Source: Escherichia coli (GTDB taxonomy: Bacteria > Pseudomonadota > Gammaproteobacteria > Enterobacterales > Enterobacteriaceae). Taken from it: 64,000 nucleotides of DNA. Positions 30,001 to 33,000 of the stretch are shown one piece after another (the stretch's first letter is position 1; every line of letters starts with the position of its first letter). A program made the position numbers. The stretch lies in the NCBI RefSeq assembly GCF_024223415.1, contig NZ_CP100500.1; one strand, 5' to 3'.

Positions 30001-33000
30001 AATATAATTATTTTTCCATCGAACATGAGGTGTATGTCATAAGATTAAATGATAACTATGTATTCCTCGCGGTGAATTATATGAGGTAAAAGATGAAAAT
30101 TGGAACTGTGGCAGGTACTAACGACAGTATAACGACAATCGCAACAAATGATATGGTGCAAGAGCATGTTACCAACTTCACTAAAGAACTGTTTGGGTAT
30201 ATTGCAAATGGTATAGGTGATGATATATCAAGTATTGCCAGGACAATGCTCGGTGAGGTTGTGGAAAAAATAGATGATTGGCAAATAGAACGGTTCCAAC
30301 AATCTATTCAAGATGACAAAATATCATTTACCATACAAACGGATCATTCAGAAAAATATAGTATGCTATCGGGCATGCGTGCCCATATTCTACGTAGGAA
30401 TAATAGTTATCAGTTTATTGTGACAATTAATAGTAAAAATTACGGTTGCCCTCTTGATGATACCGATATTAATTGGTGCAGCATTGTTTATTTACTTAAT
30501 AATATGACAGTAAATGATAATGCTAATGATGTTGCAGTTACTGAGTCGTACAAACCCATCTGGAACTGGAAAATATCGCAATACAATGTCTTTGATATTA
30601 AATTCGAAACAATTATAAAACTCCAGTTCGCTGACAGAACCTATTTCTCCAATTGTTCACCTGTTGATCCCACAAGTACCAGACCAACCTATTTTGGTGA
30701 TACCGATGGCTCAGTCGGTGCAGTTTTGTACGCGCTTTTTGCAACGGGACATTTGGGAATTATGGCTGAAGGAGTAAATTTTCTTAGCCAGTTGCTTAAT
30801 ATAGAAGATGAAGTTCTCAACGTATTGCTAAGGGAGAACTTTAATGAGCAACTTGATACTAATGTTAATACAATAATCAGTATCCTGAACAGAAGAGACA
30901 TTATTTTAGAAAGTCTTCAGCCTTATTTAGTTATTAATAAAGACGCAGTGACGCCATGTACGTTTTTGGGTGACCAAACCGGCGATCGATTTAGTAATAT
31001 CTGTGGCGATCAATTTATCATCGATTTGTTAAAACGCATAATGAGCATCAATGATAACGTTCATGTATTAGCTGGAAATCATGAAACGAATTGCAATGGT
31101 AACTATATGCAGAACTTCACGCGTATGAAACCACTTGATGAGGATACCTACGCTGGGATAAAAGATTATCCTGTATGTTTCTATGACTCCAAATACAAAA
31201 TAATGGCAAATCATCATGGGATAACTTTTGATGATCAGCGAAAACGTTACATTATAGGACCGATAACGGTCTCTATTGATGAAATGACCAATGCTCTCGA
31301 TCCGGTCGAATTAGCGGCAATTATTAATAAAAAGCATCATGCTATAATTAATGGTAAAAAGTTTAAAACTAGCCGGGCTATCTCTTGTCGATCCTTTAAT
31401 CGTTATTTTTCTGTTTCGACAGATTACAGACCTAAACTTGAAGCACTATTAGCATGCTCACAAATGTTAGGTATAAATCAAGTTGTTGCACATAACGGTA
31501 ATGGTGGAAGAGAACGTATAGGTGAAACGGGGACAGTTTTAGGTCTTAACGCCCGTGACAGTAAACATGCTGGAAGAATGTTCAGCATGCATAATTGCCA
31601 AATTAACCCTGGTGCGGGGCCTGAGATAACCACTCCCTGGAAGTCTTACCAGCATGAAAAAAACAAAAATGGACTTATGCCTTTGATTAGAAGGCGCACA
31701 ATGTTACAGCTCTGAACCATAGACAACATGAATATTAATGTTACTATCTGGTTGAGACTGTTGATAAAACGTAAAAAGGAATGCTCTGTTCCTGCAACTG
31801 AACAGGCGTGAAACGCTATCCAACAGGATGGATACCGTTTTGTCAGCCAGTTTTATAGATCACACTTATGAGTATGCGTGTTTCATTTACGGCCAGGAAT
31901 GCTGATGATGACAACATTACTACCCGTTTTCACTAAGCCTTCCCCGTTGGCGCTCAATGCTCTGCGCGCTGGTCGTATTTGCCGTTTCCTTCTTATCCCG
32001 GATGGAAGAATCCGCTGAACGTCGTTCGGCGGCAGTTGTAACACGCGTCGTTTGCTTACAGGGATTATGGCGGGTCGATTATGGATAAAAGTAAGCGCCA
32101 TCTGGCGTGGTGGGTTGTCGGGTTACTGGCGGTGGCGGCTATAGTGGCGTGGTGGCTGTTGCGCCCGGCAGGTGTGCCAGAAGGCTTTGCCGTCAGCAAT
32201 GGGCGCATTGAAGCGACGGAAGTGGATATCGCCAGCAAAATTGCCGGGCGTATCGACACCATTCTGGTGAAAGAAGGCCAGTTTGTTCGCGAAGGCGAAG
32301 TGCTGGCGAAGATGGATACTCGCGTGTTGCAGGAGCAGCGACTGGAAGCCATCGCGCAAATCAAAGAGGCACAAAGCGCCGTTGCCGCCGCGCAGGCTTT
32401 GCTGGAGCAACGCCAAAGCGAAACTCGTGCCGCACAGTCGCTGGTTAATCAACGCCAGGCAGAACTGGACTCCGTAGCAAAACGTCATACGCGTTCCCGT
32501 TCACTGGCCCAACGAGGGGCTATTTCTGCGCAACAGCTGGATGACGACCGCGCCGCCGCTGAGAGCGCCCGAGCTGCGCTGGAATCAGCAAAAGCCCAGG
32601 TTTCGGCTTCTAAAGCCGCTATAGAAGCGGCACGCACCAATATCATTCAGGCGCAAACCCGCGTCGAAGCCGCACAAGCCACTGAACGGCGCATTGCCGC
32701 AGATATCGATGACAGCGAACTGAAAGCCCCGCGTGACGGACGCGTGCAGTATCGGGTTGCCGAGCCAGGGGAAGTGCTGGCGGCAGGCGGTCGGGTGCTG
32801 AATATGGTCGATCTCAGCGACGTCTATATGACCTTCTTTCTGCCAACCGAACAGGCGGGCACGCTGAAACTTGGCGGTGAAGCCCGGCTGATCCTCGATG
32901 CCGCGCCAGATCTGCGTATTCCTGCAACCATCAGTTTTGTCGCCAGTGTCGCCCAGTTCACGCCAAAAACCGTCGAAACCAGCGATGAACGGCTGAAACT

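What the first reader, a model, noticed from the sequence alone, without database searches (positions are those of the whole stretch)
31899..32018. Unannotated 39-codon ORF in the spacer upstream of yhiI-rbbA-yhhJ
ATGCTGATGATG... encodes MLMMTTLLPVFTKPSPLALNALRAGRICRFLLIPDGRIR, with AGGAA just upstream, in the 365-bp spacer preceding the yhiI operon. It is too short for the supplied ORF track. It could be a small protein or a leader peptide controlling the downstream HlyD/ABC operon, or it could be chance.
Basis: seen in the sequence. Interest (0 to 1): 0.2.

Follow-up and report, generated by a model that had tools for sequence, protein, structure and literature searches.

The report
Known small-protein gene yhiY (uORF)
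The short reading frame is real, but it is the already annotated and experimentally confirmed 37-residue E. coli gene yhiY, which most likely acts as an upstream "leader" frame helping to set how much of the downstream yhiI-rbbA-yhhJ exporter operon is transcribed.

Summary
The ORF at 31899-32018 (+) exists as described. It is not unannotated. RefSeq and MG1655 annotate yhiY (b4790, Pfam PF23514) in the same frame with the same stop. Its start is two codons downstream, at 31905, giving 37 aa. Published ribosome profiling places initiation at the second AUG. The protein was detected by mass spectrometry at about 1000-3000 copies per cell. A Rho-dependent RNA 3' end lies 43 nt before yhiI. My comparison of 24 leaders from 8 enterobacterial genera shows that the SD, the AUG-AUG and about 30 nt upstream are nearly invariant (42-47 of 48 nt, against about 50% identity at yhiI third codon positions). 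The body of the peptide evolves almost neutrally. It changes frame and length between clades: 3, 37-46 and 78-98 codons. A conserved long-range helix encloses the uORF. Two local hairpins explain the conserved "FLLIPDG" nucleotides. The uORF body is C-rich and G-poor in every leader. The best reading is a cis-acting uORF in a structured leader that modulates Rho-dependent attenuation. The identification is certain; the mechanism is inferred. Novelty: already known. The leader structure, absent from Rfam, is the only possibly new element.

The parts
31720..31747 (+). Sigma-70 promoter of the yhiY-yhiI-rbbA-yhhJ transcript (TAGACA-16-TACTAT, with TG before the -10 hexamer).
   Evidence: Consensus scan. 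The same hexamers are listed as the constitutive RpoD promoter of yhiI-rbbA-yhhJ by genomic SELEX (PMC3946193). A homologous TAGACA...TAGTAT is present in the other genera.
31754..31754 (+). Approximate transcription start of the K-12-type leader.
   Evidence: The forward primer used by Adams et al. to clone the yhiI 5' UTR starts GAGACTGTTGATAAAACG, which is window 31754. This is 7 nt after the -10 hexamer.
31748..31852 (+). About 105 nt of extra 5'-UTR sequence found only in K-12-type E. coli. It lies between the -10 element and the conserved block and folds on its own into a long imperfect hairpin.
   Evidence: It is absent from ST131-type E. coli and from E. albertii, where the promoter abuts the block. 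It is single-copy and present in 4282 of 5426 complete genomes.
31871..31918 (+). Nearly invariant 48-nt block: P1 5' arm, SD, AUG-AUG and the first 4-5 codons of yhiY.
   Evidence: 42-47 of 48 nt are identical between E. coli and Klebsiella, Raoultella, Kluyvera, Citrobacter, Salmonella and Pseudocitrobacter. yhiI third codon positions are 47-54% identical in the same comparisons.
31874..31885 (+). P1 5' arm (AUGCGUGUUUCA) of the predicted long-range helix.
   Evidence: RNAalifold found it independently on two sequence sets. The 8-bp core is paired in 24 of 24 sequences. One U-A to C-G double change is seen in three Pseudocitrobacter sequences.
31891..31897 (+). P2 5' arm (GGCCAGG), which includes the yhiY Shine-Dalgarno AGGA at 31895-31898.
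   Evidence: RNAalifold. 87.6% of cells are paired, with one-sided changes only.
31905..32018 (+). yhiY coding sequence: 37 codons plus a TGA stop at 32016-32018.
   Evidence: RefSeq CDS WP_001296785.1 maps here. MG1655 b4790 spans 3630665-3630778. Pfam YhiY matches at 103 bits over positions 1-37 of 37. The Ribo-seq start is the second AUG. Mass spectrometry detects the protein.
31914..31991 (+). C-rich, G-poor stretch inside yhiY; candidate Rho loading (rut) region.
   Evidence: C/G is 1.73 here, against a window 95th percentile of 1.64. C/G is 1.5-2.8 in the equivalent 80 nt of all 24 leaders despite sequence divergence. That it is a rut site is inferred, not shown.
31968..31974 (+). P2 3' arm (GCUGGUC, yhiY codons 22-24), which pairs with the SD region.
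31985..32008 (+). P3 hairpin (UUUCCuUCU / UAUCCC loop / GGAuGGAAG). This is the nucleotide block that reads FLLIPDG in E. coli.
   Evidence: RNAalifold. The closing pair varies AU/UG/UA. The nucleotides are conserved in the C. freundii group although the uORF reads them in another frame there.
32012..32032 (+). P4 hairpin (CCGCUGAAC-GUC-GUUCGGCGG), with the yhiY stop codon in its 5' arm.
   Evidence: RNAalifold. 95% of cells are paired, with a GC/GU/AU series at one pair and CG/UG/UA at another. It is present in the single-sequence MFE folds.
32016..32038 (+). Published Term-seq RNA 3' ends at -65 (32016) and -43 (32038) from the yhiI AUG. The -43 end is scored Rho-dependent and labelled 'uORF'.
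   Evidence: Adams et al. 2021, supplementary tables: MG1655 3630667 and 3630645. Coordinates were mapped through. The ends lie 8 nt after P3 and 6 nt after P4.
32037..32048 (+). P1 3' arm (UGUAACACGCGU), 33-44 nt upstream of the yhiI AUG.
   Evidence: Variation in this arm is only A<->G opposite U, apart from the Pseudocitrobacter double change.
32081..33148 (+). yhiI (HlyD-family membrane-fusion protein), the first large gene of the operon. rbbA follows at 33145-35880.
   Evidence: ORF list, Pfam HlyD_3, ABC_tran and ABC2_membrane, RefSeq annotation.

Best explanation
The ORF is yhiY (b4790), a 37-codon gene that starts at 31905. It is transcribed with yhiI-rbbA-yhhJ from the sigma-70 promoter at 31720-31747, and it is translated. 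It most likely acts in cis as an upstream ORF within a structured leader. The proposed mechanism has four parts. (1) The body of yhiY is a C-rich, G-poor stretch on which Rho can load when the RNA is bare. (2) Rho then stops transcription just before or inside yhiI, and the RNA 3' ends are trimmed back to hairpins P3 and P4. (3) Ribosomes translating yhiY cover that stretch and unfold P2-P4, so transcription reads through. (4) Access to the yhiY SD and AUG is limited by helices P1 and P2, so the folding state of the leader sets the outcome. The features under selection are the start site and the act of translation, not the peptide sequence. Shown: the identity of the gene, its translation, the promoter, the Rho-dependent 3' end, and the conservation pattern. 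Inferred: the rut site, the role of P1-P4, and the direction of the effect.
For: Identity. The RefSeq yhiY CDS maps to 31905-32018. Pfam PF23514 matches at 103 bits. The exact sequence is in UniProt and NCBI as YhiY.

Translation. Onc112/retapamulin profiling puts the start at the second AUG. Of the 38 SPA-tagged candidates only ORF24 and ORF56 went undetected, and ORF9 was named yhiY. Mass spectrometry gives about 1000-3000 copies per cell.

Cis-regulatory setting. The promoter is supported. Adams et al. list yhiY-yhiI among validated uORFs with a 3' end less than 200 nt downstream. The -43 end is scored Rho-dependent, and a yhiI fusion rose more than 2-fold in rhoR66S. Overproducing the RNA chaperone CspD raises expression of the yhiY operon.

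My comparisons. A uORF opens at the conserved AUG in 24 of 24 leaders, but it has 3, 37-46 or 78-98 codons, different frames and different stop positions. The 5' block is 88-98% identical, whereas the middle of the uORF is 20-55% identical, similar to yhiI third positions. P1 was recovered independently in two clades, and its core is paired in 24 of 24 sequences. The uORF body has C/G of 1.5-2.8 in all leaders.
Against: No experiment yet links yhiY translation to yhiI expression; Adams et al. only list the pair. Support for the structure is moderate. The P1 5' arm is invariant, so there is only one true compensatory change. The MFE z-scores are not significant (-1.0 and +0.4). The MFE of the ST131-type leader does not contain P1. 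The structure was derived from the same sequences on which it was counted. In Kluyvera the uORF has only 3 codons and could not shield a rut site. YhiY accumulates as a stable peptide, and within Escherichia residues 1-11 and 25-31 are invariant, so a function for the peptide is not excluded. The inducing signal is unknown.
Confidence: 0.6

Rival explanations
1. YhiY is a small protein that acts in trans, for example as a partner or modulator of the YhiI-RbbA-YhhJ exporter encoded next to it. In this reading its position upstream simply reflects co-expression.
For: The native protein is detected by top-down, DIA and PRM mass spectrometry at about 1000-3000 copies per cell under several conditions. 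It has its own Pfam family. Within E. coli, residues 1-11 and 25-31 are invariant among 29 allelic variants. Between E. coli and E. albertii, the last third differs only by synonymous changes (sequences).
Against: The peptide is not conserved beyond Escherichia, C. amalonaticus, Pseudocitrobacter and S. diarizonae. The C. freundii group reads the 3' half in another frame. The Klebsiella group has unrelated peptides of 78-98 aa that overlap yhiI. Kluyvera has 3 codons, and one Escherichia species is frameshifted. The middle of the ORF evolves like neutral sites. In the conserved C-terminal 7 codons I count about 5 nonsynonymous and 2 synonymous changes, and the same nucleotides form hairpin P3. 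A 34-aa truncated allele is common. No hydrophobic stretch long enough to span a membrane is visible by inspection.
Confidence: 0.2
2. The conserved leader RNA (the 5' block with P1-P4) is the regulator. It would act as a ligand-, protein- or sRNA-responsive element, with the uORF as a passenger whose translation is incidental.
For: The strongest conservation lies in about 30 nt of non-coding sequence upstream of the SD and in the P1 3' arm. Kluyvera keeps P1, the SD and the AUG but has lost most of the uORF. CspD, an RNA chaperone, raises operon expression.
Against: The SD and AUG-AUG are themselves invariant, and an open frame follows in 23 of 24 leaders. In the Klebsiella group that frame stays open for 78-98 codons. 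No Rfam family matches. The folding energy is not unusual. The one sRNA tested, GcvB, pairs no better than controls.
Confidence: 0.15
3. yhiY has no function. It is pervasive, incidental translation of a chance ORF in a long 5' UTR.
For: ORFs of this size are common in the spacer, with four of 39 aa or more. The peptide body drifts almost neutrally. An IS1 insertion and truncated alleles occur in natural strains.
Against: The SD, its spacing and the AUG-AUG are conserved across 8 genera at a level equal to second codon positions of yhiI. The C-rich composition is maintained despite divergence. A Rho-dependent 3' end lies immediately downstream.
Confidence: 0.07

Closest known systems
YhiY of E. 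coli K-12 (b4790; UniProt YHIY_ECOLI; Pfam PF23514; Weaver et al. 2019, ORF9)
   Same: The sequence is identical. It has the same frame and stop and the same position 62 nt upstream of yhiI.
mdtU-mdtJI (Adams et al. 2021): a uORF whose translation controls premature Rho-dependent termination of a downstream exporter operon
   Same: Both have a short translated ORF in the 5' leader of a transporter operon, a Rho-dependent 3' end just downstream, and a fusion derepressed in rhoR66S. yhiY-yhiI is listed in the same paper as a candidate of this kind.
   Different: For mdtU, the start-codon mutant, the spermidine signal and conservation of the peptide's C-terminus were shown. For yhiY none of these has been tested. 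The peptide's C-terminus is not conserved across genera, and a long-range helix encloses the uORF.
Classical leader-peptide/Rho systems: tnaC-tnaAB, mgtL-mgtA, corL-corA, toiL-topAI (from my own knowledge of the literature; not tested here)
   Same: All share the same logic: ribosome occupancy of a leader ORF decides whether Rho gains access to a rut site, and alternative leader RNA structures take part.
   Different: Those systems have a defined signal (tryptophan, Mg2+/proline, or ribosome-targeting antibiotics) and often a sequence-specific arrest peptide. Here no signal and no arrest motif are known, and the peptide is variable.
Rfam cis-regulatory leader families
   Same: This is a conserved, structured 5' leader upstream of a transporter operon.
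   Different: No Rfam 15 family matches 31000-33000 at E <= 1, apart from a chance isrG hit inside yhiI on the other strand.

Membership tests
YhiY (Pfam PF23514 / b4790) | The sequence matches the family HMM above the gathering score of 27 bits, over its full length. | tested here: met
   103.1 bits, E = 6e-30, residues 1-37 on profile positions 1-37 of 37.
YhiY (Pfam PF23514 / b4790) | The product is identical to the annotated YhiY and occupies the same locus, between yhiJ and yhiI on the same strand as yhiI. | tested here: met
   The exact sequence is in the collection as 'protein YhiY' / YHIY_ECOLI. The RefSeq and MG1655 CDS map to window 31905-32018.
YhiY (Pfam PF23514 / b4790) | The frame is translated in vivo from this start codon. 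| not testable with these tools
   Taken from the literature: Onc112/retapamulin profiling with the start at the second AUG, SPA tagging and mass spectrometry. SD spacing and conservation of the AUG-AUG agree.
Regulatory uORF controlling Rho-dependent attenuation (mdtU / tnaC type) | A short translated ORF lies on the same transcript, upstream of the regulated gene. | tested here: met
   The promoter at 31720-31747 and the TSS near 31754 lie upstream of yhiY. No terminator-like site lies between yhiY and yhiI. The stop codon is 62 nt before the yhiI AUG.
Regulatory uORF controlling Rho-dependent attenuation (mdtU / tnaC type) | Rho-dependent termination occurs downstream of the uORF, in the leader or early in the gene. 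| not testable with these tools
   Literature: the 3' end at -43 is scored Rho-dependent; there is an internal bicyclomycin-sensitive 3' end in yhiI; the yhiI fusion rises more than 2-fold in rhoR66S. My only contribution is the C>G composition of the uORF body.
Regulatory uORF controlling Rho-dependent attenuation (mdtU / tnaC type) | Abolishing uORF translation changes expression of the downstream gene. | not testable with these tools
   No published test was found in the 8 papers that mention YhiY. A start-codon mutant in a reporter is needed.
Regulatory uORF controlling Rho-dependent attenuation (mdtU / tnaC type) | The uORF itself (start site and open frame) is conserved across related genomes. 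| tested here: met
   The SD and AUG are conserved in 24 of 24 leaders from 8 genera. An open frame of 37-98 codons follows in 23, and of 3 codons in Kluyvera.
Sequence-specific arrest/leader peptide (TnaC, SecM, MdtU C-terminus type) | The peptide sequence, usually its C-terminus, is conserved at the amino-acid level. | tested here: not met
   The C-terminus FLLIP[DE]G is kept only in one clade. The frame differs in the C. freundii group and in Esch. sp. E1V33. The peptide is unrelated in the Klebsiella group. The conserved nucleotides form hairpin P3. Only MMTTL at the N-terminus is general.
Trans-acting conserved small protein (AcrZ / MgtS type) | Purifying selection acts on the whole peptide across genera. 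| tested here: not met
   The middle of the ORF is 20-55% identical at the DNA level, like neutral sites. Frames and lengths differ.
Known structured RNA family (Rfam 15) | A covariance-model match reaches the gathering score. | tested here: not met
   No match at E <= 1 on the + strand in 31000-33000.

The most novel reading that the evidence does not exclude
The yhiY start region and the long-range helix P1 (31874-31885 with 32037-32048), together with hairpins P2-P4, form a conserved cis-regulatory leader of Enterobacteriaceae that has not been catalogued. In this leader what matters is whether the uORF is translated, not the peptide it encodes. Translation decides whether Rho attenuates an ABC-2/HlyD exporter operon. 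The element would respond to an unknown signal that changes leader folding or ribosome loading, such as cold-shock-type RNA chaperones or translation stress.
Probability: 0.35. Interest if true: 0.4.

Novelty: already known. Interest (0 to 1): 0.15.

Why it matters
For the finding as submitted it matters little. The scan rediscovered a small-protein gene that entered the E. coli annotation after the 2019 ribosome-profiling work, and this shows that reading raw sequence can pick out genuine small ORFs.

What remains open is yhiY's function. The cross-genus pattern found here has three parts: an invariant start region, a drifting and frame-shifting peptide, and a helix enclosing the uORF. This pattern argues that yhiY is a regulatory uORF rather than a functional peptide. 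It also supplies concrete mutants for testing how the poorly understood yhiI-rbbA-yhhJ exporter operon is controlled by Rho.

Tried and rejected
1. GcvB pairing. The CA-rich start region ACAACAUUAC resembles a GcvB target. RNAduplex of MG1655 GcvB against 31880-31940 was matched or beaten by 12.7% of shuffled targets and by 58% of other start regions in the window. Rejected.

2. Alternative-frame ORF over the conserved block (MSMRVSFTARNADDDNITTRFH, 31868-31936). In the block I count 2 synonymous and 6 nonsynonymous changes in that frame. It lacks a usable SD and ends at different places. In the C. freundii group this frame stays open for 57 codons and ends FLLIPDGISR*. Twenty-five further stop-free codons have a chance probability of about 0.3, and the six genomes represent one lineage.

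3. Antisense 72-aa ORF (31883-32101, minus strand). It is not kept open in other genera, where the longest open stretch is 37-77 aa with different frames and sequences.

4. Rfam. Nothing relevant was found.

5. NCBIfam. No model matches YhiY or the uORF peptides of other genera.

6. Thermodynamic evidence for structure. The z-scores are -1.0 and +0.4, which are not significant.

7. An SD-sequestering hairpin for yhiI (GUCGUUUGCU with GGCGGGUCGAU). It appears in the E. coli MFE, and an analogous ACUCAGC/GCGAGU helix appears in the Klebsiella group. The registers differ and the ST131-type allele breaks a pair, so I left it out of the model.

8. The riboswitch-entropy paper that mentions rbbA, yhhJ and yhiI. 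Its hit is 6.6 kb away and irrelevant.

9. RIL-seq and GcvB-regulon supplements. They are not held as text.

10. The extra 5'-UTR segment as a repeated mobile element. It is single-copy.

I did not pursue it with a longer query.
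Full report
**Observation**

The window at 31899-32018 (+) contains ATGCTGATGATG... ending in TGA. The upstream gene is a 540-aa DUF4049 protein, yhiJ, which ends at 31715. yhiI starts at 32081, so the spacer is 365 bp. The ORF alone is unremarkable. Four ORFs of 39 aa or more overlap this spacer, including a 72-aa antisense ORF.

**Identity**

A megablast of the spacer against 5,426 complete E. coli genomes found it in 5,412. The feature under the match is nearly always 'yhiY: protein YhiY'.

- In strain 120899 the yhiY CDS maps to window 31905-32018, in the same frame and with the same stop as the finding, starting two codons later.
- MG1655 carries it as b4790 at 3630665-3630778 (-), 62 nt upstream of yhiI.
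- The 37-aa product matches Pfam PF23514 'YhiY' at 103 bits over its full length.
- The exact sequence is recorded as YHIY_ECOLI.

The ORF is therefore not unannotated.

**Published experiments**

- Weaver et al. (bioRxiv 10.1101/511675) found it as ORF9 by Onc112/retapamulin ribosome profiling. [quoted passage not shown]
- Of the 38 SPA-tagged candidates, only ORF24 and ORF56 went undetected.
- A 2025 proteomics study detected native YhiY by top-down, DIA and PRM mass spectrometry at roughly 1000-3000 copies per cell (PMC12529367).
- Adams et al. (PMC7815308) list yhiY-yhiI among validated uORFs that have an RNA 3' end less than 200 nt downstream. They report a yhiI fusion more than 2-fold higher in rhoR66S.
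- Their supplementary tables give 3' ends at -43 (scored Rho-dependent, tagged 'uORF') and -65 from the yhiI start, plus an internal bicyclomycin-sensitive end. These two ends correspond to window 32038 and 32016.
- Their cloning primer places the 5' end of the UTR at window 31754. This is 7 nt after the TAGACA-16-TACTAT promoter found in my scan and by RpoD genomic SELEX (PMC3946193).
- CspD overproduction raises expression of 'the operon associated with yhiY' (PMC9765468).

**Start codon**

The sequence supports the published start. The first AUG is replaced by ACG in Citrobacter and UUG in Klebsiella, whereas AUG-AUG is kept.

**Comparative analysis**

This part is my own work. Using YhiI as a probe, I fetched yhiI loci from GTDB species representatives. 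Leaders from 22 of these species contain the yhiY start region. They come from Escherichia, Citrobacter, Pseudocitrobacter, Salmonella enterica diarizonae, Kluyvera, Klebsiella, Raoultella and an Enterobacter sp..

A 48-nt block (31871-31918) is 42-47/48 identical to E. coli. It comprises about 30 nt upstream of the SD, the SD, the AUG-AUG and 4-5 codons. In the same genomes yhiI third codon positions are only 47-54% identical, and the middle of the uORF is 20-55% identical.

The peptide is not conserved:

| Clade | uORF length | Peptide and stop |
|---|---|---|
| Escherichia, C. amalonaticus, Pseudocitrobacter, Salmonella | 37-45 aa | Ends FLLIP[DE]GxxR |
| C. freundii group | 46 aa | A 1-nt indel puts the 3' half in another frame; stop is 4 nt later |
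| Escherichia sp. E1V33 | 45 aa | Frameshifted |
| Klebsiella/Raoultella group | 78-98 codons | Runs 67-131 nt into yhiI, out of frame |
| Kluyvera | 3 codons | Stops immediately |

Within E. coli, variants cluster at residues 12-24, 27 and 32-37, and a 34-aa truncated allele is common.

**RNA structure**

RNAalifold on 16 Escherichia, Citrobacter, Pseudocitrobacter and Salmonella leaders predicts four helices.

| Helix | Coordinates | Notes |
|---|---|---|
| P1 | 31874-31885 with 32037-32048 | Long-range helix enclosing the uORF |
| P2 | 31891-31897 with 31968-31974 | Pairs the yhiY SD with codons 22-24 |
| P3 | 31985-32008 | Hairpin over the 'FLLIPDG' nucleotides |
| P4 | 32012-32032 | Hairpin with the stop codon in its 5' arm |

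- An independent run on the 8 Klebsiella-type leaders again found P1. Kluyvera keeps P1 in its MFE fold although it has lost P2-P4.
- Counted over all 24 sequences, the 8-bp P1 core is paired in every one. The 3' arm varies only A<->G opposite U, plus one U-A to C-G double change.
- Overall, 87.5% of cells are paired, against 36-45% when the partners are slid. Double changes number 16, against 9 +/- 3 in shuffles (2 of 500).
- P3 and P4 explain why their nucleotides are conserved where the reading frame is not.
- The two published 3' ends lie 8 nt after P3 and 6 nt after P4. This is what exonucleolytic trimming after downstream Rho termination would produce (inference).

There are caveats. The 5' arm is invariant, so true covariation is scarce. 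MFE z-scores are not significant. The ST131-type MFE lacks P1. The structure was derived from the sequences it was tested on.

**Composition**

The 80 nt after the start codon have C/G of 1.5-2.8 in all 24 leaders. The window's peak, 1.73 at 31914-31991, exceeds the 95th percentile of the window (1.64). The composition is preserved while the sequence drifts, which fits a Rho loading site inside the uORF.

**Mechanism (inferred)**

1. Transcription starts near 31754.
2. Ribosomes can load at the yhiY SD and AUG unless P1 and P2 close over them.
3. When yhiY is translated, the C-rich region is covered and P2-P4 are unfolded, so RNA polymerase continues into yhiI-rbbA-yhhJ.
4. When yhiY is not translated, Rho loads on the bare uORF body and terminates before or within yhiI.

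The CspD effect is consistent with melting of the leader structure. The signal is unknown.

**Confidence**

| Claim | Confidence |
|---|---|
| Identity as yhiY | about 0.98 |
| Cis-uORF role | about 0.6 |
| Specific structure-based details | about 0.35 |

**Rivals**

- A trans-acting small protein. It is supported by the peptide's accumulation and by conservation within Escherichia, and weakened by the cross-genus frame changes.
- An RNA element with a passenger uORF.
- No function.

**Other checks**

- Rfam has no matching family.
- GcvB pairing, the alternative-frame ORF and the antisense ORF were tested and rejected.
- Hafnia alvei has an unrelated 50-codon uORF upstream of yhiI. Proteus, Providencia and Morganella show none.

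**Verdict**

Novelty is 'already known' and interest is low. The conserved leader architecture is a modest lead that may be new.

Noticed in passing
window 31748-31852: K-12-type E. coli carries about 105 nt of extra sequence between the -10 hexamer and the conserved leader block, so the TSS lies inside it. It folds alone into a long imperfect hairpin. It is single-copy and present in 4282 of 5426 complete genomes. ST131-type E. coli and E. albertii lack it, and they also lack yhiJ at this site.
   Followed up: partly
L002 2400-2680 (E. coli E423): An IS1A element is inserted in yhiY after about codon 6, removing the promoter, SD and start. In the same strain rbbA is a pseudogene with an internal stop. 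PGAP calls the remnant a 'hypothetical protein'.
   Followed up: no
window 32007-32018 (YhiY residues 35-37): A 34-aa YhiY allele lacking the last three residues is frequent in E. coli. Its two variants were seen on 275 and 195 contigs.
   Followed up: no
L009, L011-L015 (C. freundii group), about 230 nt upstream of yhiI: Two overlapping open frames cover the leader. One is the MMTT... uORF of 46 aa. The other is a 57-aa frame, MSMRVSFPARNADDDNITTRFHS...FLLIPDGIS[RH]*, starting at the AUG inside the P1 5' arm. It recovers the Escherichia-type C-terminus. This could be chance (p about 0.3), or a hint of frameshifting or dual use.
   Followed up: partly
L019-L025 (Klebsiella oxytoca group, Raoultella, Enterobacter sp. 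10-1): The uORF is 78-98 codons long and overlaps the first 67-131 nt of yhiI out of frame. Between Klebsiella and Raoultella, a 1-nt and a 2-nt indel together restore the frame.
   Followed up: partly
L026 about 2297-2450 (Hafnia alvei): A 50-codon ORF (MKTSIVGVTPISIDV...) with a TAGGA SD starts 204 nt upstream of yhiI. Its peptide is unrelated. A GTGTTTGTTTCATTC motif upstream resembles the enterobacterial block.
   Followed up: no
L027-L032 (Providencia, Moellerella), 60-120 nt upstream of yhiI: A recurring TATTTATTTCA motif precedes yhiI in these AT-rich leaders. It shares TTTCAT with the enterobacterial block and could be a DNA-level operator.
   Followed up: no
window 30093-31715 and about 28300-29900: yhiJ (DUF4049, with a weak calcineurin-like phosphoesterase hit at E = 0.002) has a diverged paralogue upstream, annotated as the pseudogene yhiL. 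A 61-nt stretch around GNHE is 77% identical between the two.
   Followed up: no
window 31883-32101 (-): A 72-aa antisense ORF covers all of yhiY. It is not kept open in other genera.
   Followed up: yes
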